Assembly (NCBI GenBank): GCA_050084515.1
Contig: CM114271.1
Coordinates: 27,590,001-27,654,000, forward strand
DNA from: Blasia pusilla
Lineage: Eukaryota
Length of the DNA stretch: 64,000 nt
Direction of reading: 5' to 3'
The notes beneath the pieces were generated by a model. The model saw only the letters and a list, made by a program, of their open reading frames with translations, did not search any database and was not told the DNA's origin. Below, piece after piece: positions 1 through 14,528 of the stretch; position 1 is the stretch's first letter; the number at the start of each line of letters is the position of its first letter. A program made the position numbers and the translations under genes.

Positions 1-1068
1 GAGTGGAGGCTCTATGAAGACAAGGGCCTCTAAGGAGCAGAATGTCCTAGATAGGGCGGGCTTCGTCCCATAGAGGCCCCTCTCCTCATAGAGCAGGCCT
101 TTCATGGGTCGAGCCCGCACTCCTTGGGCCTACCTTGGACTAATGCGCCCTTAGGGCGGGCCAATATAGGCAATTTCCAGCCCACCTCTCTTAATTTGAA
201 CCCGCACCCATTCTTGTGTCTCAAGCCTGCGCAGGCCACTTGGGTACCAAAAACACCCGGATGGGGAAATTCTTGGGCATGTATGTTTTTGTGCAACCTT
301 GGGGCAAGTGCTCCATCTTGGAGGAGGTGATGAGCCCACACCAAGAGTATACGAGTGTGATCACGGGGGCTCGTGTTGTGGCAGGAGAGAGGAAGAGAGG
401 AGAGGAAGAGAGGAGAGTCTCTCTTAAAAAAAAAGGGCCAAATCCGCCTCCTCTCTTCAAAAAATTTTGACATATTTGAAATTTTTGTTTGCTTTCAAAT
501 TCATGAAATCTTTAGAAGAGAGTAGGTAGTGGTCCACATTCGGGCCTTAAGAAACCTCCTTTTTTCAGAGGGCGAAAAACAAGTAGACATCATAAGACCA
601 CTACAAACATTTTTCCATCACTCTCCATGTGAGCCTAAGTTCCTTCACATTGCCTGTCTCGCCTGATAAGTTGTGCCTGTGGCTATTTTTTTGGAGGACC
701 ATTGGCAAATAATGTGACCAGAAGTAGCAATCTCATCTCAATGAAAGGTTCAAATAAAGACCAACTTTGTGAAATGTGAACACAGGAGACAATAATTAAA
801 CCAAAAGATTGTTAGCTGTCTGGAGTAAAGAGAAACTGATGTCCCTTCATTCAGATCCTAAATCTGATAAACCGAGAAGCTGCACTCCTCCCAACCCGTC
901 GGAATTTTATAGGTTCCAACTCTTGCAACCCATCGGAATTAGATGGCTTGCACCCCTTGCAAGCAAGCTTACCATAACAAAGGAAAGATTTGAGAAGTGA
1001 TTCCATTCCACCCTGTACCCACGAAAATTTAACTGTTTGGGAATCCGAAATGGCAATCCGACAGGTTA

Positions 1069-1929
1069 TAAGAATCCAGCACGTCTTAGAGAAGAAAAGA
1101 AGCCTAAGATTGGTTTGATGATACTAGGGGAACGAGCCAAAAGTGAAGAAGCCCGTCACAATGCCTCAAAATTTGGTCTCCCAGGGAAAAATTCGGATCA
1201 CTCAAGTAGCCAACCTGTCAAAATCCGACAGCTTGCCTAGAAATGGTTGAAAAGTTGCAGTGGTCAAAAAGTGAAAAGTTGCAACCCATCGGAATCCGAC
1301 GGGTTGCAAAATTGTAATTCTAAGTAGCTAGACGAACACAATCCACAAGTCCAAAAAAAATATTCAGCAAAATTTTACAAACACCATTATCGGTTGAAAA
1401 AATCTCGTCCTTTATTACATCCGAAGGAATCTCGGAAATGTACATGTGATCTAGTCTATGATTTCTTCAGCCTTCTCATCTACAAATTTGCTCATGACTC
1501 TCCTAGGTTCCTGTACAAAAGGAATGTCTTGGGATACAAGTGGCTCCTTTGGCCGATTGTAGACGGGGATCGAAAATGTTGGCGAATTCGAGAGCCTTGG
1601 CCCCCCCCTAGGTACACCATAACGGTCCCATGTAACCTGATTTGAGTCCCATCGCCTTCCTCGGCAGTATATCTTGTACGCTCTGCAATGTGACATCCAT
1701 CCAATATCAATACGTGCTCCGTCCTTGGAAATACCATGATGGCAATCCCACAGGTAGTAGGAATCCAACATGTCTTGGAGAAGAGAAGAAGCCTACGCCT
1801 TGTTTGATGATACTAGGGGAAGGTGCTAAAGTGAAGAAGCCCGCCAGAATGCCTCTAAAGAGTCCGAAAGAGTCCGATCACTCACGCAGCCAACCTGTAG
1901 GAATCCGACAGGTTTCCTGGAAGTGGTTG
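1069..1929 (+). repeat. ~190-bp imperfect direct repeat (copies ~1069-1249 and ~1738-1929) inside the MULE
   Basis: Both copies read ATGGCAATCC..AGAAGAAGCCTA..TTTGATGATACTAGGGGAA..AAAGTGAAGAAGCCCG..GATCACTCA..GCCAACCTGT..AATCCGACAG..TGGTTG. Confidence 0.85.
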
Positions 1930-2543
1930 TCGTGCGCATACATATCGCTACACAACATACATCGCTTCGTCACATCTATACCACACAACACCGATCTTCC
2001 CCACACACGGGTCGATCCACACATGTACAAAAATCAACCCATACATATACATGGAGATCACACAACAAAAATAAAGAGTAGAAAAAATGGCAACCCGGCC
2101 TAAAACTCCACTCTTCAATCTACATCGGCATATCGAGCCTCGTCCACCCTGTGCTATCAAGGAATCCGGACGCTAGCACCCTAGTCCTAGCTCACACACA
2201 TACAAGGGAGGTGCTCCAACGGCCCAACATGAGAAAGATGGCTTAGGAAAGCCATCTTCCTCTCTTATATAGGTTGGGAAGAGCCAAAAGGCTCTTCCCC
2301 TAAAAATAGCCCTTCCCTTGGTAACTCATACAAGAGGTTACCAGGGGCGGGTGACCTGGTCAACAAGTCATCCGTCTGTAAAAGACCTCAACATGAAAGT
2401 CGTCAGAAACGACGTTCCTGACACAATGGACCTATCCTCAACCTCATCTGACACTGTGGGACAAAGTTACACTCAAGATAGTCCTCTGGCTCCTACGCCC
2501 TATCCACGATAGATCTCGGCCTATCGGCTACCCATATGTGACA
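1928..2543 (-). mobile_element. Solo terminal repeat (A+B unit) of the DNMT-gypsy family
   Basis: On the minus strand it starts TGTCACA and ends TGCGCACGACA, the same 3' end as the other family members. TATA-like CTATATAAG near 2265. 1928-2323 is near-identical to 21488-21884. No TSD found. It truncates the MULE cargo gene. Confidence 0.8.
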
Positions 2544-5500
2544 CCCCTGAAAGGCCCACTAAGTCGAACACCAAGTCACCCGGCCTTGAGCAGAGCTCGA
2601 TGAGCGTTTGCATCAGGGTTGGCGACTTTTCCTTTCCTCCAAGTAAGGGGGTACTGTCTTGCATGTAAATTCCCGGGGGGGAATTTTATAAACTATCTAA
2701 GTTGTACCCATTGGAGCATGGATCCACAAGATCCAGGATCTTAAACACCTTGAAGTTGTGCTCGGGCCGAACAAAGCAGTAAACATAGGAGTGGTCCATC
2801 TGTAAAGAAGCACGTTGGAAACAATGTCAGCAACAAGAAAGAGCTACTTGACCACAAGTCTACTCTCAGTATGGTGACATAATGTGCAACACGTCCCCAA
2901 AGAACTTCGCATTATAATCCTAACATTGGAGCAACCTATCGGAGTCCGACGGGTTGTTTTACAAGTGTTAGTGATTTTTTTGTCCATGAGCAACCCGTCG
3001 GAAGGCGAAAGGTTGCTGGCTTAGAGCAGCCCATGGTTGGCTAAGAGCAACCTGTCGCTTTCAAACGGGTTGCATCATTCCAGAAACACAAGGAAAAATC
3101 ATGAGCACTTGCAACCCGTCGGGTTCTGACGGGTTGCATTCACCCAATGGAGACTTGCGGTAAATTTGCAACCCGTTGCTTTCAGACGGATTGCACCACC
3201 GAAGTCTCCAGCTCAAACAATCCGATGGGTTGCATGCAGAGATGCAACCCGTCGGAGAAAGACAATTTGGATATAAATTTAGAGCCCTTACTCGAATTTG
3301 ACTCGTCGCGGATCGGAGTGGGTACTCGTTCTTGATGACCCACGATTGCGCCGTCCTCCACTTCAGCGACCTCTTGACGCACTGGAGGTTGAAGAGCTTG
3401 TCCTTGCTCCCTCCAGTCAAAACTAAGAAACATCCCCTGTCACTGAGATAAGCGTCTACAAAGGAAAACAGGAGCGTGATCTGGTCATAAGAAAGAGGGA
3501 CATTCCAGTCTGGGACCCCGTCGAACGGATTCTCGTCCCACAAGCGCAACCCCGAGGGAAAATCGGCGACGAGGAGATCCACCGCCACCTCTTTGACCTC
3601 CCCATGGACCGTCCAGGGAGCGTGCCCATTTTTTTGAAGCTTGCGTCCCAGCGTTGTCAATTTCTCGATGGCGGGTGTCGACGCTTGGGAACTGAAACGT
3701 TTCAGCTCATCGAGAAGATTTGTGTAGTGAATGATGACGCTTGTCCAGGTCGTTGTTTCTCTATGTCTTCCCAAGGATGATGGAGTGTATTCCACATCCT
3801 GGTCTGCTCCGTGGGACAACCCTGGCGCCTCTCGCTTCCGCTTCTCCCGAGTCTGCGGTCGGCTTGTTGGGGTCTCTATGACCTCAGACTCTGGTGGAGT
3901 TTTTTTTGCAAGACCTGGTCCGACCCTCTCTCCCCGCTCGCCCGGACGATTCCGGCTCTCGCCTTGAATTTTCAGCCTCTCTTTGGGAAGACTCGGCCTC
4001 GGAATTCTTCGATCCCCTCGCCTTGGCTTTGAGACCCGCTGTAGATTTGTCCTTGGCGGTGACGACATTGGACACCAACTCCGCTGTCTTGAGGGCTTGC
4101 TCCTCCGCATCTCCTTCGAAAAAGTCTTCAGGCTGCACAAAATTGGGGATGTCGTCCCTACCTGCGGCCACTGCATCATAGAGCTGGCGTAGATCTTTCT
4201 CGGTTATGTCCTGAGGGTCGTTGAAGTCCAGCCAAATCGAGAAATTCTCCACCTTCCAATCGGACATGCTTTGAGCCATCTCCATGTCGTACATGGAAAA
4301 TGTCTCTCCATCAGGCGGAGAAGCCCATAATTTGCAGGCTGCCGATATTTTTCGGCAGTTACCTGCATTCTTACAATGGATAAGGTACCTGAACACCATG
4401 CGTTAGGCAACTCTTAGTCGAGATGCATCGGCTTCCTGCTCCTGAAGATCTTGCTTCTTCTTTGCGAAATCCCTTTTTTTCGCTTCTATTTCTTCGTCAA
4501 GGTCTGCCTGAGGGAGGATGCGATCCTTGAACATCATCCTAAAACCTGGGTTTTTAATGGGCTTGTCCCGCATGTCATCCAGGCAAAGTTCAAAATCTTC
4601 AGCACTCTCCAGGTTTGTTTCCTCCGGAACTGGCTCTATTCTTTTCAGCTCCGCTTGGAGACCCACGAGCATGGACTTCCCGAGAAGCCGCAACGCGTCC
4701 CAAAATGACCATTCACGGAGCCAATGGGAGATCACTGGATCAGAGACACCCAAAGGATGGTGTGCCGCCCTCTTTTGGGCCTCTGTGCCCTCGAGACTGA
4801 TTTTCATCAGTCGAATTCTCCTAAATTCGCTAATTCTAGACAAGGCAAATCGATGCACGCGATCGAGAGACACTTTCTCCCCAATCCGACCTTGCGGATC
4901 TTCATCCCTCTTCCGCTGGCGCTTGATTATCGCCTTCAGCTCCTTGTAGAAATCGGGGCCAAGTTCGGGGTTGAGAATGGCGATGTAGCGTTGCATCTTG
5001 CTTGCCGTGTACTTCGTAGCTGAAGATACTGCCGCTTGGATGAACTTTGCATGCTCAGACACAGACACATTCTCCCTCCGCTCCAGCTCCAGTGCAGCGC
5101 TCTTCTTGGCGGCCTGTATCTTCGACCAGCAAAGGATTGTCATGGCTGCATCTTGGGAAATAAATTTATTTGCCCAAGTCTTTTTTTTATTTGAGCACCC
5201 TTTTCCAGGATGTCATTTACAAGGGCGTCGCCCAAGAACCCCTTGTACTCTGCCGGATGCGTCGTTAGCACTTTCTTCACCCAATCGCAATCTTGGATCC
5301 AGTGGTGGGTGACATTCCCCTCCGATACAATCCTGCACATCCAAACTCAATATGAGAAATTTTGCAAGGTCCATGGGTTCTTGCAACCCGTCGGACTCTG
5401 ACAGGTCGTCACAGCTCATGGTCGGAATGGTAGCTACGAGCTAAATTTTGCAACCCATCGGAGTCTGACGGATTGCATTCAGATTTATGATTGCCTGGTT

Positions 5501-7335
5501 TCAACCCGTCGGACTCTGACGGGTTGTCAGATAATTTGTATTTAGAGAGTGATTACAGAGAGAAAAGTGAACATATCAACCCGTCGGAGTCGGACAGGTT
5601 GCACAATTTCAATTAAAGCTGCAATTTGACGCCAAAAATGTAGCTCCCCTACTTCCAAATGCAACCTGTCGGACTCCAACGAGTTGCTTTCGGCCAAAAA
5701 CATTAAAAAATAGCTATGAGTCAAGCAACCCGTCGGACTCCGACAAGTTGCTTTCTTCAAAAAACATCCAAAAACAGCGGCCAGTCGAGCAACTCGTCGG
5801 ACTCCGACGAGTTTCTTTCGGCCAAAAACATCCTAAACCTGTGGTCAGTCGAACAACTCATCAGAATCTGACGAGTTGCTTTCGGCCAAAAACATCCTAA
5901 ACCTGTGGTCAGTCGAACAACTCGTCGGACTCGCTTTCGGCCATAAACATCATAAACCTGTGGTTAGTCAAACAACTCGTCGGAGTCCGACGAGTTTCTT
6001 TCGGCCAAAAATATCCTAAACCAGTGATCAGTCGAACAACTCATCGGAGTCCGACGAGTTGCTTTCTGCCAAAAACATTCCAAAAATAGTGGCGACTCAA
6101 ACAACTTGTCGAAGTCCGACGGTTTGCAGCAAGAGGAAACTTACATGTTCATGGCATGCATGGCCATCTCCACCGTCGCCATGTGATGAGGGAATGGATG
6201 TAGCACCAGTGCCTTCATGCAAAAATGTGCCTCCAATGAGTTTGGGCGCTCCTCTGCAAACTGGGTCCACGTCATGAACATGTGGTTTCCATCCCAGATG
6301 AAGAAATACAGCTTCCGCATCCAGCTGAATTCCATCCCCTCTATCGCCCTTCTGAATTCCTGATCTCTCATCCTCCAGAATGTGTCGAGCGCTTCCAAGT
6401 CCTCCTCCATAACCAGCGCTTGGGTTCCATGGTCATCGTAAGGCTGAACATAGAACGGAGGGAAGTTGTCGACTTAGGATGCTGTCGCTGCCGATTATTT
6501 CAGCTTTGCAATATCCTTGTCAGACTGAATTTCGCAGACGTACTCCATTGTTCGCAATTAGCAAAGTGGAATTCTCGGGGCGTTATGGCCCTCCATCAGT
6601 GCCATCTGCTTTACCACCTGTCACAACGGGGACAAGGTCAATAAGCTACACTAAATTGCCAATGAATTGCAACATGGGCCTTCATATAATTCAAAGAACA
6701 CAGATCCTCTCTTACTCGCTCAAAGACTGGGTCGGTGTCTTGGCCAGCCAACTGCTCTGGGACAGCAGTTAGCAAGTCCACTGGAAACTCGTCGATCCGA
6801 TAGAGGTCGATTTCTTCCACCGGGCTTAGAGACGAGGATGACCGCTCTCCTGGTTCTTCAGCGATGTCCACCATCTCCACGCTGGCGGTCCTCATGACCT
6901 CATCGTCCGTCACTTGAACTTCAGCCATTTTCGCTATATTGATTGTGTCCCCGGACTTCATCGGGGACATTTCCTGCATCTTAACACTTTTGGTTGGACG
7001 GGCAGGGATTTCTTCAATGGCAATTTCTTTTTCCCTCCGAGCTTTTTCCAATTCTACTCTCCTCATCGACGCGTCTTTTCACGCTTTTTGTCGGTGATCC
7101 TTTTCTTCAAGGCCTGCGACGCCTTAGCCTCTGCGTTCTATTTTTTGAGTGCCTCATTTACACGTTTTGCAAGAAGCTCCTGCTTGTGCATCTCCGCTTC
7201 CCTTTCCCGCTCCTCGATTTCTTGCTGCCTTATCTCATTGGCCGAACGAGGCCCTAGAGATGGTGACGCAAGAGTCCTCATTGACTTGGGAGTGAAGCTC
7301 CCAGCCTTGTTTGCTTTAGATTTTTTCCTCGTCAT
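2544..7335 (-). pseudogene. MULE cargo gene: ParB/Srx-like N-terminal domain + coiled/low-complexity middle + beta-class N4C/N6A DNA methyltransferase-like domain (introns 6715-6618, 6144-5333, 3291-2800)
   Basis: Three GT-AG introns splice in frame (FER|VVK, MNM|IVS, QIR|MDH). ParB-like IPLC*LRTMEYV..FFIWDGNH (6280-6570). MTase motifs VDLLVADFPSG (DPPY position), YLSDRGCFLVL, and EKSPTLMQTLIELCSRPGDLVFDLVGLSG (motifs X/I). Several stops and homopolymer frameshifts. Confidence 0.75.
5655..6130. repeat. 64-bp tandem array (8 palindrome-containing units) in an intron of the cargo gene
   Basis: CAAC palindrome cores start at 5662, 5726, 5790, 5854, 5918, 5973, 6037 and 6102. Unit is approximately CAACTCGTCGGACTCCGACGAGTTGCTTTCGGCCAAAAACATCCTAAACCTGTGGTCAGTCGAA. 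Confidence 0.9.
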
Positions 7336-7679
7336 TGTTCCCGAAAATACCTCATATGGACAAGCAAATTGCTCTCTCTGCATGAGGAATCGCCTTGATG
7401 AGTCGCCTTGCTGATGTCGCGATGAGTCGCCTTGATGAGTAGCTCGAATCATCTCGCGATAGTTCTCTCAAATTGTCTCGCGATGAGTTGCCGTGTAAAT
7501 CGCCCCTTGGTATCTGGTCAGCTACTGTGCGGAAGAGCAATTGAGATCGCAAAACGAAAAACCGGAAATGAGCGAACCTTCCCCTATTTATACTTTTCGA
7601 GCCGTTGGGCTGACCGTTGGGTCGCATCGTCCTTTCGACAGCGACGTGCCAGCCGTTATGGAAATTTGGACGTGAAAAA

Positions 7680-8625
7680 CACCAACCCAACGGCTTCGAC
7701 AAGTTGCACGCTTCTCGAGGGTTCAAGGCATCCGTCCTCGTGGCAACCCGTCGAAGACCGACAGGTTGCACGCCTCTGCCGTCTTCGGACAAGAACGCGA
7801 GGTACCCGCGCAACCCGTCGGAGACCGGTGGGTTGCACCCTTCCCTCGTCTTGGGATAACAAGGCGGGCTTCCAGCGCAACTCGTTGGAGGCCAACAGGT
7901 TGCACGCTTCCTTCATGTAAGCGTTACAAGGCGACTCATCGCACAACCCGTCTGAGGTCGACGGGTTGCGCGCCTCCGCTGTCTTTGGGCAAGAAGGTGC
8001 GGAACCCGCGCAACTCGTCGGAAACAGACGGGTTGCACGCTTCCTTAATGTAAGCGTTACAAGGTGAGGCAATTGCGCAACCCGTCTGAGGCCGACAGGT
8101 TGCGCGCCTTCGTCGTCTTCGGGCAAGAAGCCACGGCACCCGCGCAACTTGTCGGAGATCGATAGGTTGCATGCTTCCTTCATGTTAGCGTTACAAGGTG
8201 AGGCACAAGTGTGCAACCCGTCCGAAGCCGATGGGTTGCATGCTTTGCTTATCTTGGGTTAATAGGCGAGGTACAAGGGCAACCCGTGAGTTATCGACAG
8301 GTTGCACGCTTTCCTATCCCTCGGGTAACAATGCGAAAACGCATAGTTCCGAGGCAACCCATTGCAATCCGACGGGTCACAAGATCTACCCTGAGTTGGA
8401 CAATCCCGCAAAAGTCCCCAACGATTGGTCGCCTTAGCATATGCAAGCGATATCTTGTGTTTGATGCTAGCAAAATCGACTCAACAGACCTTTGGTCGGC
8501 AAGAAGGGGGTACCAACCCAACGGACTCCGACGCGTTCCAACAAAATGAAGTGTGTGCTTCGCAACCAACGTCTCTGATTCCCAAATTCTGCAACCCACT
8601 TGACTCTGATAGGTTGCAACAGAAT
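7680..8625. repeat. Array of 27-bp palindromes GCAACCCGTCGGA-N-TCCGACGGGTTGC with ~67-bp period, between the two divergent MULE genes
   Basis: Cores start at 7744, 7811, 7878, 7944, 8011, 8078, 8145, 8214, 8280 and 8355, with further copies near 7684, 8514 and 8591. Confidence 0.9.
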
Positions 8626-8710
8626 TGAATCCATTGTGTCAGATATTTTCACCTACCAAACTTCATCTTGTTAGTCAAATTCTGTCAGGAGAATCTGAGT
8701 CCCTATTCAC

Positions 8711-8760
8711 TATAAATTAAACATTCTCATTCTCATTCTCATTCTCATTCTCATTCTCAA
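8711..8760 (+). promoter_or_regulatory. Putative TATA box followed by (CTCATT)n microsatellite upstream of the transposase ATG
   Basis: TATAAA at 8711, about six CATTCT units at 8722-8760, ATG at 8787. Confidence 0.4.
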
Positions 8761-8786
8761 TCTCCTCCGGGTGGAATCTTCTGGGA

Positions 8787-11700
8787 ATGGATAATTATGT
8801 GAAGCTCACTTGTGGCAGTCATCTAGCGGCCCTTCCTCAATCAGAAATCGTTCGACTGCAAGCTCGTGAGTCTTTCATACTAGTGGATGAAATTTTTCTC
8901 TCACTTCGATTTCTTCTCCAAATTGGAATCATCTTTGTATCCAAGGATGTTAGGGTGGACGGTACGGAGGACATAATAGATGAGACAGTTCAGCCAGTGA
9001 TTGCAGACCGTAAAGTATGGAATCTCCTACCTCTAGCAAATGGTCAATATAGAGTTTACGGCTTGCCCCTTAATTCTTCTGTTTCCCAAGTAGACGGTCG
9101 AGAATTTCCTAGTGCACCGAGCTCTACGTTTGCAACTCCTAGCTCAGTAGATCCGGCTTCGACTCCAACTTCACATGCTCGTAACAATGTTGTACTTCTT
9201 GAAGACATTCCGTATGTTATCAACCTCAGTGGATCTGTCGGACACCAACCAGGCCCTCTATTCGCCTACTCGTTCCTCTTGCCAGTATTAGGCAATAGTT
9301 TGCTATCGTCTCTGGCCTTGAAAATGTTCAAGCACATTCTTGTCGATGAGTTGCCACCCACGTACGATGATAATTGCATTTTTGAGTTGCCTCCACTTGC
9401 TACTCCTGCTCAAAAGAAAGATGGAGGACGCTTGAAGAGTATGGACAGAAAGTCTGATTGTCATCGATGGTGCATGCTTCAACGGACTAGTGCTTCAATT
9501 CCAGATGGTCCTTGGATTGTCTCCCACTGCCAATACGTTGGAGCCTTGGAGTGTAGAAGTCCAGCATGCCTATATCTAGAGTGCAACGGGCGAGTCAATA
9601 CGTCGCAATTCCCCCCCAAGAATGCAGAAACTCCATACGAGGTCGGTGCCACCATACCGCCGGGAGGCCATCGATGTTCTCATTGTCAGGCATCCCCCTT
9701 CTGCGTTGGAGCGTGTCCTGCATACATATTTTTCATTGTCCACGACTTGGGCTCCACGTCAAAGTACACAAGGCTGGAAGTTCATGTTGGCTCCCACACT
9801 CATCTTGTGACCGATGCAATTCAGAGACACATCAAGGAGGATGTGGCGAAGAAAGTTTCGGAGGTCTACAGAAACTCTCCGGGTTCAAAGCCCGGAGTGA
9901 TCAAGCTCACAATAGCATCACAAATTTGCGAACAATTGCTTGGAATCCCTCGACAGGGCGAGATCACGGCTGATGAGGAGAAACAACTATGGGAAAATCT
10001 TGCATTTCTCGCTGATCCTGAATGCTTCTGGAATTTTCTGAGTCAAATACGGGTACTGGATGGAAAGCCGGCCGAAATGGATGCCATTTCCAGAATCAAG
10101 GCCAACTCCAGATTTCCATTCATTCAGAGATGGCAGTTCATGGGCCAGGGAGGCGAGGGATGTAGGGCCTATGTCTTCAAAATGTCAACCACAGGTCCGT
10201 CGAGTGGCCTCGATCTTATAGATCGAATGAGAGAAGGGGAAGATCTTTACGGCAGCTAGGTAAGCTTTGATATTTGCTACAGAGTGCTGAATGGATGGTT
10301 GAGAATGGGTGCTTACGTTTATGACCATGTGGAGAAGGGACTCAAAACTATATTTGTCTGTGAAGTAAAACCAGAAGACGTTGGCAGTTTGAAGATGTGG
10401 TGGTTACTCTTATTGGAGGTGGTGAAGGAAAATAAAAGGCCACCTCCGGAAAATTTATGGGTTCATGGCGGACAATGCACAACCAGGGTGGATTGCTATC
10501 AAGGAAGTGTTCTTGGGTGGAGAGGTTCAACCGGAGAGGGAAAGTTTGGATGCTTTCCATTGGCAAGAGTCTGTGACCCGTACACCAAATCTTGCATCAA
10601 GGAGAATAAGAGGACAGAGCATATCACTCTACTCCAACGCTGTTAGGACAACAAAACCTTGAAACACGCCATGGAATGCCAAGAAGAACTTCATGGATGG
10701 TGGAGGAAGCATGCGATTGAGGGGAAGTACAAAGAGTTGTGCTCTTGGTTGAGTTGGTGGACTGTACGTATGAGACAATGGGGAAACTTCATGTGGCAGG
10801 TGAGTTCACTATTTCTTCTTGTCAAGTTCACGCTGAGAATTTTTTAAAAAGTTGCAGCTCAAGTTGAGAAGCGTGGGAACTATAGGGATTTCAAACCGAA
10901 GAAACCAAGCAATTTTTCGGATGGGATGGGTTGCCCGACTGTGCAACCCTTCGAAATGGACAGGTTGCCTGAGTGTGCAACCAGTCGGAGACCGACGGGT
11001 TGCATCCAGAATTTTGGTGCAACCCGTATATAAGTATGCAAGTCGCATGTATACAAGGCCTGCAAATAGTTCGACCCCGATGGGTTTCGGATGACTTGCA
11101 CTTGGATCTTCCATCCCGGAGTGGCCAAAGGTTCTTGCAACCCGTCGGAATCAGACGTGTTGCAATAGGTGTTTCCTAGGTGTTGCAACACGTCGGGACC
11201 CGATGGGTCACAGAGTAATTCATGGGATGCCTCAGCCTTGCAACCCGTCTGGTTCCGACAGGTAGCTTATTTCTTTGACTTCTGAGCTATTTTCGTTCCC
11301 TTCTAACATTGCCGTCGTTGCAGGGATTGAACATTCATGAAAATTCCCTCTACCCCAACACAAGTGGAGCAAAAAGTGTTCATTCCTCCTGGAGGTTGTC
11401 ACAAGCATGCCAACGAGTTTCACTTGTGGAGGCATGCCAACAAGACGAGGCAAGAGCAATGCTACAGTCTGCAGCATCCCATATCTTCCTCACAAAAGGC
11501 ATAACAAAAGGAAGGGGGCCTTCGATCTACGAGCTCTATGTCAGGGCGGCTGTGAGATCCGGTGATGAAAAACTCTATGTGGAAGCCTTCAACCGATGCG
11601 TAGCAGGAACTCCCCTCGAGCAAGACGTACATATTGGTGGGGATATTCGTGGGCGGGTTTTAAGATGTCCCATACAGATGGTGGTAGAGCAGTCCGAGCG

Positions 11701-14113
11701 AGACTCGTGGAGACCAGATAAGTATCTTGATTTCAGGCAGCCGAAGAGGCAGCATCAAGGAACGAATCCGGTGATTGATTTGGATGAGGAAATTACGTAT
11801 ACGCCGCCTAGGTATTCGGGGACCCCGGACCGCTGTCGTATAGTAAAATCAACCAGTGTGTAAACTCCTTCGTCATTAAGTGTTAGATAGAGTTTCATTA
11901 GTATTAAGTAAATTGGCTTAGAAAAAGGAGATTCTTATGTTTAAACCTCTTTATGGTGCCTCTTTTATGCGGGCCCAACTTTAGGAAAAGGAGGTAATAA
12001 ATAAAAGATGACTTTATAAAAGTAAAGTAGTTGCTTTAATGAAAAGCAAAAGTAGTCTTGGTTGGTGGCTAGGTTAGTTGGGGTAATTTGGAAAATATCA
12101 AGTGGGTAAAAGAGGATATTTTGGAAGAGATAAGAGGAAATCTACTTGTATCAAAATGTGATTGGCTAAGCCTTGAGAGGAAGCCATGTGGCACAAGATA
12201 AGATAAGCTCTATTTCGTACTCTTGTGGATCCCTTGTGAGTATATAAAGAGGAGGGACCTTCAAGGGTTCATCACCTTCTATTCCACATCTTGAGTCTCT
12301 CGTGTCTCTCTTGAGTGTATGGTTTTGGGATTGCTTGCTCTTCCAATGAAAGTGGATCACCCCTCTTGGGAGAGTAACTTGACCATGGTCTATTGTTCGA
12401 GAGATTTCTAGAGTGGTGTGTGTGTGTATGTGGGGATGAGAGGTTTGTCACCGTAGAGGAGTTTAGTCATACTAAAATAGCGGATGTTTTGGCTTGTTAC
12501 TTCCCCAATGAGAGTGGATTATCCCTCTTGGGACAATAACTTCGCCAAAACCCATTCCTGAGGAGAGTAGAGAATGTCTGTCAAGCATGGATAGGGTGGA
12601 GCACGAGCTGTGCCGACTTTCCTTTCCTCAATCCTTACCATGTCAAGGTACTCTTTGTAGATAGGCACTGGTTCACTCGCTATTTAGTTTATCATTTTGG
12701 GGAGGCGTTCATGAACTAGGTCATGCAATCTCCAACTCCGGTGATTCTTCCTATTGTCACATATGGAAGGACATGGGATTGTACTTTGTATGTCCTTATA
12801 TAGCGATCCATGGATGTCAATAGGCCTGCTCAAGTAGGGTTTAACACTAGTTGTGCTATCTTCCTCGTGTACAAGCGTAAAATAGTTTATAGGGATTTTA
12901 TAGTTAGGAATTTTGGGGTCCGATGTTACGAAGAAGAAGTGATCGCTCGGCACTTCCATTTGTGATATAATTGTCGTGAGGGAATGGAGAGTGTACATCA
13001 TAATTTTGTATTAAAAAAGGAGAACTTATTAGAGAGTTCACCTTGCATCGACCGCATCTACCGCAGCTAGAAGGCCCGCCCTTGCTCGAAGAAAGACTCT
13101 CGACACGACACCGCTCCCAAATCCGTGATGGAATAACTTCTCCAAAATCAGTGAATGTTTTATTTCAAAAGCCCTCCGTTGCTGGAAGTTCGCAACATCC
13201 GGTCGGTGGGGTAGTTCAACAATATGGGATTCCGGTAATGGAGGTGGATTGCAACCTAAAACGGTGGCATATATCTTGGAGCAACCCAAGACGTGCACCC
13301 ACTTGCAGGGCAGGATCTGATGGCATTAGGAGAGCATACGGCACTTTCTTGAATAAGAATTGTACAAGGATTGGATGACCACTGCGTGGGTTTTGGGGAC
13401 TCAAAACCTTTGTTCGTTTCACGAGGACCGGGGATCAATTGAAGTATTTCTTCTGCCCAAATGAATCTTGCGCTTTCCAGAAGTCTTATCTGGCTGCCAT
13501 TTGAGCTCTGGGGAATACCCCCACGACTTGGCCCATCGCTGCAAGGACGAACTGCACTCAAGACGAAGTGGACAATCTTACAAGTGCCGGTTTCAGACTC
13601 GTAGACGGAGGAAGTTCGAAGCATATTTGCATTACAGAGACCTTCGCATTTCGTATTCAACCCAAGATTGATGTCAACATGTACCCGGGGAAGGTGGATG
13701 ATCTCAATCCACTATTTCTGTTTGAGTCTAGAAATGGGGTGAAGAGAAACAGAATGTGTAGGCCAATGGTGGAGAGAGCAAAGCGAATTGCATCAGCTCG
13801 GGAGGCAAAAATGGAGATCATCGCCACGAAAGATGTCCTGAGTGGCAATGGAATAGGAAGGATGTATTGGATCAGGAACAACAGTGTAAATTCAAGTGTC
13901 ACAAGGGTGTATGTGGTGCACATCTGTTGCTTTCCCACATGTTTATGTGATGACTTTGTCCAAAGAGAGACATGTGGCAAAAGGTATTTCCCTTGTAAGC
14001 ACATGTACTATGTGTTGCTGGTAGTTTTAAGAGAGTCGAAGGTAGGAGTAGGAATCCACCAACCAATTCTGTCCCTCAAAGAAGTGCAAAGTATTTTAAA
14101 CAAACCACTTTGA
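8787..14113 (+). pseudogene. MULE-type DDE transposase with N-terminal Cys/His zinc domain and C-terminal SWIM finger; intron 10800-11323; interrupted by a solo LTR
   Basis: Cys/His cluster CRSPAC..CSHC..CPA..HTH. Core motifs VSFD..NGW..VYDH (D1), FMADNA (D2), AFHWQES (CxxH position), TSGAKSVHSSW (E position, mutated). SWIM motif PTCLCDDF..PCKHMYYV in 13568-14113. Donor CAG|GTGAGT, branch CTAAC, acceptor TTGCAG|. In-frame stops and frameshifts. Confidence 0.8.
11834..13050 (+). mobile_element. Solo LTR (1217 bp) of an unrelated LTR retrotransposon, inserted in the transposase
   Basis: Starts TG, ends TTGCATCG (CA mutated). 5-bp TSD ACCGC at 11829-11833 and 13051-13055. TATATAAA at 12241. AT-rich and non-coding. 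Confidence 0.7.
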
Positions 14114-14528
14114 GGATGCAAAATGAGGTTTTAGATTGTACTTTCATTTTTCCAGAACCTTCACTTTGAGCTTGAACTCTATTCAGCCCAGGGAAAATGA
14201 TAGATTGTTTCCACACCTTGGATGGAAAAAGTGATTGGTTCCACACTTACGATTCCATTGATTTTTCAGTTTTCTAAATTTTGTGCAATTTGCAACCGGT
14301 CGGATGGACTCAGATGGGTTGCCAAAATATGGAAGAGGAAAAGAAAAAAAACTGTGGGACTGCTTAATAACTGAGCAAAAAAGTGCAAAAAAATTCACAC
14401 AAAAAGTTTCCTCTCTTCAACCCAACGGAAACTCTCTTTAAAAAAAAAGTATCTATTTCGGTTGAAGGTAATTTCCTCTCTCCTCTCTTCCTCTCTTTCT
14501 CTCCTCTTACCGCACCTCGTGTGATCAC

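What the first reader, a model, noticed from the sequence alone, without database searches (positions are those of the whole stretch)
890..14325. A 27-bp palindrome saturates the non-coding parts of the MULE and avoids its exons
Seen: GCAACCCGTCGGA-N-TCCGACGGGTTGC and variants occur roughly 40-50 times (counted by eye). They lie subterminally (890-1310, 14292), in cargo introns (2930-3260, 5380-6130), between the genes (7680-8625) and in the transposase intron (10920-11265). I saw none in the reconstructed exons or outside the element. Some variants keep symmetry through paired changes (CAACTCGTCGG/CCGACGAGTTG). Inference: these are binding sites for an element-encoded dimeric protein (parS-like loading sites for the ParB-MTase protein, or transposase sites), comparable in logic to VANC target motifs in VANDAL MULEs. 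They are also CG/CCG-rich potential methylation targets.
Basis: partly seen in the sequence, partly recalled or inferred. Interest (0 to 1): 0.72.

Follow-up and report, generated by a model that had tools for sequence, protein, structure and literature searches.

The report
Palindrome arrays inside a plant transposon
A very abundant two-gene Mutator-like transposon packs its introns, promoter region and short non-coding derivatives with one 27-base palindrome that is kept while the DNA around it is replaced, which points to docking sites for a protein the transposon makes itself.

Summary
Confirmed. The palindrome GCAACCCGTCGGA-N-TCCGACGGGTTGC occurs 39 times in full (plus about 7 partial sites) in a 14.2-kb MULE (365-14518, 10-bp TSD). 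None lies in the exons, in two nested LTRs, or in the other 49 kb of the window. Genome-wide there are 522 exact sites, and every sampled site traced to this family. New here: (1) an abundant MITE consists of the same termini, A/T filler and 1-5 palindromes; (2) a sister subfamily (60% protein identity) keeps 11-12 palindromes in the same intron although its spacers share no similarity; (3) transposase relatives in metagenomes carry a related TCGG-NN-CCGA core in non-coding DNA; (4) RNA reads confirm that two array-bearing introns are spliced. Arm covariation is weak (about two independent origins). No RNA-hairpin signal was found, and the motif's CG sites decay like the rest of the element. 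The accessory gene has a beta-methyltransferase fold but lacks DPPY; its ParB label rests on a motif only. Best reading: binding arrays for an element-encoded dimer (about 0.75), more likely the accessory protein acting VANC-like (0.45) than the transposase (0.3). No binding is shown.

The parts
365..14518 (.). Mutator-like element (MULE), decayed copy of a family with thousands of copies
   Evidence: Homology to other copies starts at 365 and ends at 14518; 2,216-4,180 first-look candidates
355..364 (+). Left target-site duplication GTGTGATCAC
14519..14528 (+). Right target-site duplication GTGTGATCAC
365..430 (+). Left end: G-rich terminus and AG-rich short imperfect inverted repeat; no palindrome
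14470..14518 (+). Right end: CT-rich mirror of the left end, family terminus ...ACCGCTCCTC; no palindrome
891..1916 (.). Left subterminal palindromes (891, 925, 1210, 1281, 1890; partial 1057); 1050-1250 is duplicated at 1739-1929
1928..2543 (.). Foreign TG...CA repeat (probably a solo LTR) in place of the 3' end of the accessory gene; no palindromes
2544..7335 (-). Accessory gene (broken here): exons about 7335-6716, 6617-6145 (WDGNHR, ParB-like motif), 5332-3292 (helical region and MTase motif IV), 2799-2544 (MTase motif I)
   Evidence: exon 2-3 junction seen in RNA reads
2800..3291 (-). Accessory-gene intron 3 with 6 full palindromes (2931-3270), spacing 57-76
   Evidence: GT..AG ends, splicing not seen in reads
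5333..6144 (-). Accessory-gene intron 2 with 11 full palindromes (5383-6127), mostly a 64-bp unit
   Evidence: spliced in 3 of 3 RNA runs, 2-3 reads each
7682..8617 (.). Intergenic (divergent promoter) array, 12 full palindromes (7743-8617), 67-bp unit
   Evidence: almost no RNA reads
8787..14113 (+). Transposase gene (broken here): GCM/FAR1-like zinc domain about 9440-9810, DDE core (FD, MAD, DAFH, AESVH in family copies), C-terminal SWIM-like CxC...CxH
10800..11323 (+). Transposase intron with 5 full palindromes (10977-11266) and 2 partial ones
   Evidence: spliced in 2 of 3 RNA runs, 8 and 6 reads
11834..13110 (.). Solo-LTR-like insertion (TG...CA, 4-bp duplication) splitting the last transposase exon; no palindromes
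14292..14322 (.). Right subterminal palindrome variant with 4 extra central bases

Best explanation
The palindromes are cis-acting DNA sites for a two-fold symmetric protein encoded by the element, most likely the accessory protein (ParB-like motif, helical region, catalytically degenerate beta-methyltransferase fold). The protein would bind each 27-bp site as a dimer and coat the arrays in introns, promoter and subtermini. It would mark every family member, MITEs included, for family-specific activation or escape from silencing, as VANC does for VANDAL elements. Shown: distribution, confinement, fixed geometry, retention through complete spacer turnover, retention in MITEs, splicing of two array introns. 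Inferred: that a protein binds, that it is the accessory protein, and that the outcome is anti-silencing.
For: Sites sit in introns, intergenic and subterminal DNA as tandem units with unrelated spacers (spacer identity between arrays 0.39-0.45 against 0.39-0.45 shuffled). This is the pattern reported for VANC21 sites (PMC5735166, passages), whereas the accessory-free AtMu1 transposase peaks at the TIRs (bioRxiv 10.64898/2026.08.24.746577, section 7). The termini carry different motifs (AG-rich repeats, ACCGCTC; also at the ends of relatives L146 and L151), so the transposase has other candidate sites. A subfamily with 60% exon-2 protein identity keeps 11-12 sites in the same intron with spacers at shuffle level (0.29-0.30 against 0.30-0.31). 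966 of 1,018 half-site pairs keep the exact spacing. Motif bases diverge less than spacers among copies (9.0% against 13.7%). Beta-class methyltransferases are homo- or heterodimers (PMC7544214, passages). Metagenome loci L181/L182 pair the same accessory domain with the transposase and carry a decayed palindrome array beside it.
Against: No binding, methylome or chromatin data. The ParB fold and any DNA-binding HTH were not recovered. 24 of 25 MITEs keep the sites, which fits a transposase requirement equally well. The TCGG-NN-CCGA core spans transposase clades for which the accessory protein is not identified. The motif is conserved across subfamilies, unlike the fast-diverging VANC motifs. 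Motif CG sites decay nearly as fast as exon CG sites (8.3% against 10.2%), so copies were not lastingly protected. L179 and L180 carry the accessory domain but showed no site in the scan, and L178 showed one.
Confidence: 0.45

Rival explanations
1. The sites are internal binding sites for the transposase's own GCM/FAR1-type domain. They act as transposition enhancers or as autoregulatory and activating sites.
For: MITEs made of termini, A/T filler and palindromes amplified to about 1,600 candidates. The transposase N-terminus resembles WRKY-GCM1 DNA-binding domains (Atlas 0.95 FAR1-like, 0.90 GCM 12% of members; Foldseek rank 1 is 1odh GCM-DNA at E 0.17; MULE DBDs in PMC1702500, passages). The core occurs in several transposase clades. 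A MULE transposase alone can activate cognate copies and non-autonomous partners. The half-site TGCAACCCGT resembles the Aft1 and GCM sites (recalled, from no call).
Against: No site lies within 500 bp of the left end of full elements or within about 150 bp in most MITEs. Most sites are mid-element, in introns. AtMu1 transposase binds TIRs. The fold evidence is weak (model pLDDT 44.6).
Confidence: 0.3
2. The sites recruit a host dimeric transcription or chromatin factor that the element exploits for expression in a particular cell type.
For: The densest array sits in the divergent promoter region, and the core is conserved between distant elements, as expected for an unchanging host factor.
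Against: All sampled sites are in family DNA, none in host-like sequence (27 of 27 in 200 kb of arbitrarily placed windows). A 27-bp site is long for a host factor. The geometry differs by one base between this family and its relatives (N3 against N2).
Confidence: 0.1
3. The palindromes act as structure: RNA hairpins in introns (splicing, small-RNA source) or DNA cruciforms.
For: A perfect copy folds as a 12-bp hairpin at -22.5 kcal/mol. Two array introns are transcribed and spliced. One intron shows a slight G:U bias (108:80, p 0.049).
Against: Over three introns G:U-preserving changes are 204 against 174, similar to the skew in the intergenic and subterminal arrays (78:67, 61:47). The sequence, not just the symmetry, is conserved. 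The inner pairs are broken in many site consensuses. The intergenic array has almost no reads. No Rfam match.
Confidence: 0.07
4. The arrays are a neutral by-product: one ancestral palindrome spread by tandem duplication and gene conversion and survived only where no reading frame forbids it.
For: Absence from exons is expected for any insertion. The arrays are tandem repeats. Copies decay neutrally after insertion.
Against: Spacers of five arrays and of sister subfamilies are unrelated while the 27-mer is kept. MITEs keep it inside A/T filler. A related core recurs in distant relatives (8 exact against 0.8 shuffled).
Confidence: 0.08

Closest known systems
VANDAL/VANC anti-silencing system (Arabidopsis MULEs; PMC5735166 and PMC10398659, passages)
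   Same: MULE with an accessory gene and degenerate TIRs; a family-confined motif amplified as tandem repeats in introns, intergenic and terminal non-coding DNA; repeat units turn over between related copies.
   Different: VANC21 binds a 9-bp non-palindromic motif in one orientation that diverges between families. Here the motif is a 27-bp palindrome of fixed geometry, conserved across subfamilies. The accessory protein is a methyltransferase-fold fusion with no VANC-like match.
AtMu1 transposase and Spm TnpA as sequence-specific activators (bioRxiv 10.64898/2026.08.24.746577, abstract and section 7)
   Same: An element-encoded protein recognises motifs shared by autonomous and non-autonomous copies.
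   Different: AtMu1 binding peaks at TIRs and the element has no accessory gene; here the sites are mostly internal.
Bacterial parS/ParB (recalled)
   Same: Clusters of palindromic sites beside a gene with a ParB-like DGNHR motif.
   Different: Eukaryotic transposon, no ParA, 27-bp site; ParB fold, HTH and CTP binding not established.
Beta-class amino methyltransferases (CcrM; liverwort MpDN4MT1; phage DNA methyltransferases)
   Same: Motif order IV-TRD-I; PHROG methyltransferase hits (E 7e-5 in this family, 2e-7 in Riccia); CcrM is the Foldseek row with highest probability (0.84, E 1.1); many sites have the CcrM target GANTC at their centre.
   Different: DPPY is replaced by D[L/F/M]PS and FxGxG by VGLSG, whereas MpDN4MT1 has TSPPY. 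GANTC is kept in 208 of 231 intron-2 sites but only 9 of 129 intergenic sites.

Membership tests
Mutator/MULE superfamily | 8-11 bp target-site duplication | tested here: met
   10 bp in the window; a 9-10 bp duplication found for 16 of 25 MITEs; range from PMC6446971
Mutator/MULE superfamily | DDE transposase with C/DxxH signature | tested here: met
   FD, MAD, DAFH and AESVH in family copies, aligned to relatives with CxFH; motif labels recalled; no Pfam hit
Mutator/MULE superfamily | WRKY-GCM1-type N-terminal DNA-binding domain | tested here: inconclusive
   Atlas FAR1/GCM/ALS2CR8 look-alikes; Foldseek rank 1 GCM at E 0.17 on a pLDDT 44.6 model; VIA-align uninformative
Mutator/MULE superfamily | Terminal inverted repeats (long, or degenerate in non-TIR MULEs) | tested here: inconclusive
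   Only about 45 bp of imperfect AG-rich inverted repeat
VANDAL/VANC system | Family-confined motif in tandem repeats in non-coding DNA | tested here: met
VANDAL/VANC system | VANC-family accessory protein | tested here: not met
   The accessory protein hits only methyltransferase families; VANC itself was not aligned directly
VANDAL/VANC system | Target motif diverges rapidly between related families | tested here: not met
   Same 27-mer in subfamilies at 60% protein identity
VANDAL/VANC system | Protein binds the motif and removes silencing marks in trans | not testable with these tools
   needs EMSA, ChIP and methylome data
parS/ParB | Clustered palindromic sites near the gene | tested here: met
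parS/ParB | ParB N-terminal (CTPase) fold | tested here: inconclusive
   Invariant DGNH and a C-terminal AMHxxN pattern across this family and Riccia; no hit with Pfam, PHROGs, NCBIfam, PDB profiles or Foldseek; PF02195 finds no family copy in the genome
parS/ParB | HTH that reads the site; CTP-dependent loading and spreading | not testable with these tools
   The helical region is confidently modelled but matched only generic helices
Active beta-class amino methyltransferase | Motif order IV-TRD-I | tested here: met
   definition in PMC7544214
Active beta-class amino methyltransferase | Catalytic DPPY-type motif IV | tested here: not met
   Of 45 rows (overlapping loci not removed): DLPS 24, DFPS 12, DMPS 3, other 6; 1 of 45 has an aromatic fourth residue; Riccia homologs D[L/M/I]P[S/T/I/K]
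Active beta-class amino methyltransferase | SAM-binding FxGxG motif I | tested here: not met
   FDLVGLSG in this family; IDFAGGWG in Riccia

The most novel reading that the evidence does not exclude
A bryophyte MULE lineage has taken up a prokaryotic ParB-methyltransferase fusion, lost its catalytic residues and uses it with parS-like logic. The dimer loads at arrays of a 27-bp palindrome, spreads along the element and holds off or displaces host silencing. This would be a bacterial partition-type clamp repurposed as a transposon anti-silencing device, old enough to be shared with distant bryophyte elements, and perhaps opening family copies as preferred insertion targets.
Probability: 0.17. 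Interest if true: 0.9.

Novelty: new variant of a known kind. Interest (0 to 1): 0.62.

Why it matters
Sequence-specific counter-silencing by transposon accessory proteins is worked out mainly in Arabidopsis and maize. This family offers a defined 27-bp site, natural variants, hundreds of MITE reporters and two candidate proteins, so the question of how general such systems are becomes directly testable in a bryophyte. If the accessory protein is the binder, it is a new kind of anti-silencing or regulatory factor built from a prokaryotic methyltransferase fold. A long, family-specific site would also be a handle for targeted epigenome editing.

Tried and rejected
Word-indexed homolog searches with single proteins found nothing; HMMER over representatives and an alignment query did. 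The first metagenome scan found no relative. Pfam, NCBIfam, PDB-profile, Foldseek and VIA-align searches did not confirm ParB or an HTH; the Atlas gave only sub-0.9 HECT leads for exon 2. No exact site in viral contigs; no Rfam match; no earlier scan notes. Rejected: L087 as a Helitron-borne independent use of the motif. It is a 670-bp piece of intron 2 of a third subfamily lying inside a Helitron, and another Helitron copy has the empty site. Rejected: GANTC as an obligatory methylation target. Rejected: strong arm covariation. Helical phasing of neighbouring sites is not supported (no peak near 10.5 bp). Self-targeted insertion is not established: 16 of 47 family ends are nested in family DNA against 6 of 40 for two LTR controls (5 of 20 and 1 of 20; p 0.035 pooled) and 31 of 660 tiles. 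No separate, closer transposase family stood out in the genome. No RNA holder was listed by the index; raw runs were laid instead.
Full report
OBSERVATION. The palindrome is present as described: 39 full sites with at most 8 mismatches at 891-11266 and about 7 partial or mis-spaced ones, including the 31-bp variant at 14292. Shuffles give 0.025 sites and the remaining 49 kb of the window none. None overlaps an exon or either nested LTR. The best-kept positions over 1,327 distinct instances are C2, A3, A4 and T9 (93-99%); C6 and C7 often read T.

THE ELEMENT. Homology to other copies runs from 365 to 14518, with a 10-bp duplication and only about 45 bp of imperfect AG-rich inverted repeat. Two divergent genes are present, both broken in this copy. 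The plus-strand gene is a transposase: DDE and DxxH motifs in family copies, relatives at 28-42% identity in metagenomes and Riccia, a weak GCM/FAR1-type N-terminal signal and a SWIM-like end. A solo LTR at 11834-13110 splits its last exon. The minus-strand gene has 31 homologs among 1.8 billion representatives; the 10 looked up are all from Riccia. It joins a WDGNHR domain, a helical region and a beta-methyltransferase fold. Motif IV is D[L/F/M]PS and motif I is FDLVGLSG instead of DPPY and FxGxG (PMC7544214, passages), so it is probably a pseudo-enzyme (inference). The ParB label rests on the motif pattern (recalled) and on no library hit. Stranded RNA reads from three runs of one study, mostly 85-95% alike and so from other copies, show low expression of both genes and splicing of intron 5333-6144 (3 of 3 runs) and 10800-11323 (2 of 3 runs). 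The host looks like a liverwort (inference).

CONFINEMENT. The genome has 522 exact sites and 0 for the reversed control. The first 15 loci (overlapping, about 11 places on one contig) all align to the family. In 20 arbitrarily placed 10-kb windows, 27 of 27 sites lay in or within 600 bp of family DNA, 26 of them in one element, and 18 windows had none. In 20 windows chosen around exact hits, 391 of 414 sites lay within 600 bp of family DNA. Of the other 23, 14 are in diverged copies and 9 (L087) proved to be intron 2 of a third subfamily lying in a Helitron. This is a sample, not a full scan.

EVIDENCE OF SELECTION ON THE MOTIF. Spacers of different arrays are no more alike than shuffles. A subfamily at 60% exon-2 protein identity has 11-12 sites in the same intron with spacers at shuffle level. 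Among 209 aligned segments, motif bases differ from consensus at 9.0%, spacers at 13.7% and exons at 8.5%; misalignment of tandem units may inflate the spacer value. 966 of 1,018 half-site pairs have the exact spacing (many loci were found through the pattern or share ancestry). A MITE family (1,584 first-look candidates) has the same termini, A/T filler and the palindrome: 24 of 25 copies of 306-734 bp hold 75 sites. Of 41 metagenome loci with a related transposase, 4 hold 8 exact TCGG-NN-CCGA cores against 0.8 in shuffles (maximum 3 in 30). They lie upstream in tandem repeats (L147, L167), near the right end (L151) and in the homologous transposase intron (L156; my mask mislabelled these two as coding, corrected). 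L181/L182, which also carry the accessory domain on the opposite strand, have a decayed array with the same core. The pattern was defined after seeing the data, but TCGG ranked first among GC-rich 4-mers. 37 of 41 loci lack an exact core; most are short contigs. On a tree of 36 rows (12 of the 41 loci dropped as too short, among them L167), the palindrome label needs 5 changes. The core there is one base shorter than here.

RESULTS AGAINST. Pooled covariation looks strong (C6T on both arms OR 6.5, C7T 2.5, A13G 10). By site class, however, the symmetric variants trace to one run of intron-2 units and one duplicated segment. Within classes there is no excess at CG/CCG positions (OR 0.65) and a small one elsewhere (19 double changes, OR 2.9, subfamily structure not removed). 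G:U-preserving changes show no clear strand bias (204:174 in introns). CG transitions are 8.3% in motifs, 11.9% in spacers and 10.2% in exons, against 3-5% at CHH, so the element including its motifs bears a methylation-decay signature. Central GANTC, the CcrM target, varies from 90% to 7% between arrays.

MECHANISM. A conserved sequence of fixed two-fold geometry, kept through spacer turnover and in minimal derivatives, is best read as a site for a dimeric protein made by the element (about 0.75 in total). The layout matches VANC21 sites in introns, intergenic and terminal non-coding DNA (PMC5735166, passages; PMC10398659, passages), while the accessory-free AtMu1 transposase binds TIRs (bioRxiv 10.64898/2026.08.24.746577, abstract and section 7). 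The termini here and in relatives carry other motifs. I therefore favour the accessory protein (0.45) over the transposase (0.3). MITE retention and the wide spread of the core keep the transposase reading open.

NOVELTY. It works like a VANC-type cis array but is not a VANDAL/VANC member, and membership of parS/ParB is unproven. I found no description of this element, its accessory gene or the palindrome in six searches of open literature (listings only). The passages seen of PMC4738411 describe other ParB-linked eukaryotic methyltransferases; its supplement, which I did not open, could list this family. PMC6446971 and PMC12973397, passages only, name other MULE accessory genes. The MpDN4MT1 preprint (passages) concerns an enzyme with intact TSPPY. 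Verdict: a real, selected feature; new variant of a known kind; interest 0.62.

Noticed in passing
L119-L143 (e.g. G000:C1:44221366-44222025): Abundant MITE of 300-730 bp with the family's termini, A/T homopolymer filler and 1-5 palindromes; L122 is inserted inside a palindrome.
   Followed up: yes
L017-L040, L119-L143 against L185-L224: Family copies are often nested in other family copies (16 of 47 ends), but one LTR family also lands there often (5 of 20; L189 may be the same insertion as the window's), so a general hot spot is not excluded.
   Followed up: partly
L087:4481-5146: A 670-bp array fragment from a sister subfamily's intron sits inside a Helitron next to a UBA/FAF1-domain gene; another Helitron copy has the empty site.
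   Followed up: yes
P0028: A predicted protein fuses a piece of this transposase type to the accessory protein, hinting that the two genes are neighbours in the relative as well; its source was not looked up.
   Followed up: partly
L144, L147, L167 upstream regions: These metagenome elements have a divergent minus-strand ORF with a basic, NLS-like N-terminus; in L147 and L167 the palindrome repeats lie just beyond it, possibly in its first intron. The protein is unidentified.
   Followed up: partly
L146:3930-3970, L151:3470-3530, window 14500-14518: Right ends of distant relatives and of this family share an (A/C)CCGCTC motif, a candidate transposase end site distinct from the palindrome.
   Followed up: partly
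window 1928-2543 and 11834-13110: Two high-copy TG...CA repeats (solo-LTR-like, 95-97% identical copies) are inserted in this element; the first replaces about 550 bp of the accessory gene's 3' end.
   Followed up: partly
G000:C23:43897-44163: The only Pfam ParB_N hit in the assembly is on a small contig and is unrelated to this family; possibly bacterial DNA.
   Followed up: no
window 5334-5950: RNA reads cover accessory-gene intron 2 more deeply than the flanking exons and come from a diverged copy: intron retention or read-through.
   Followed up: no
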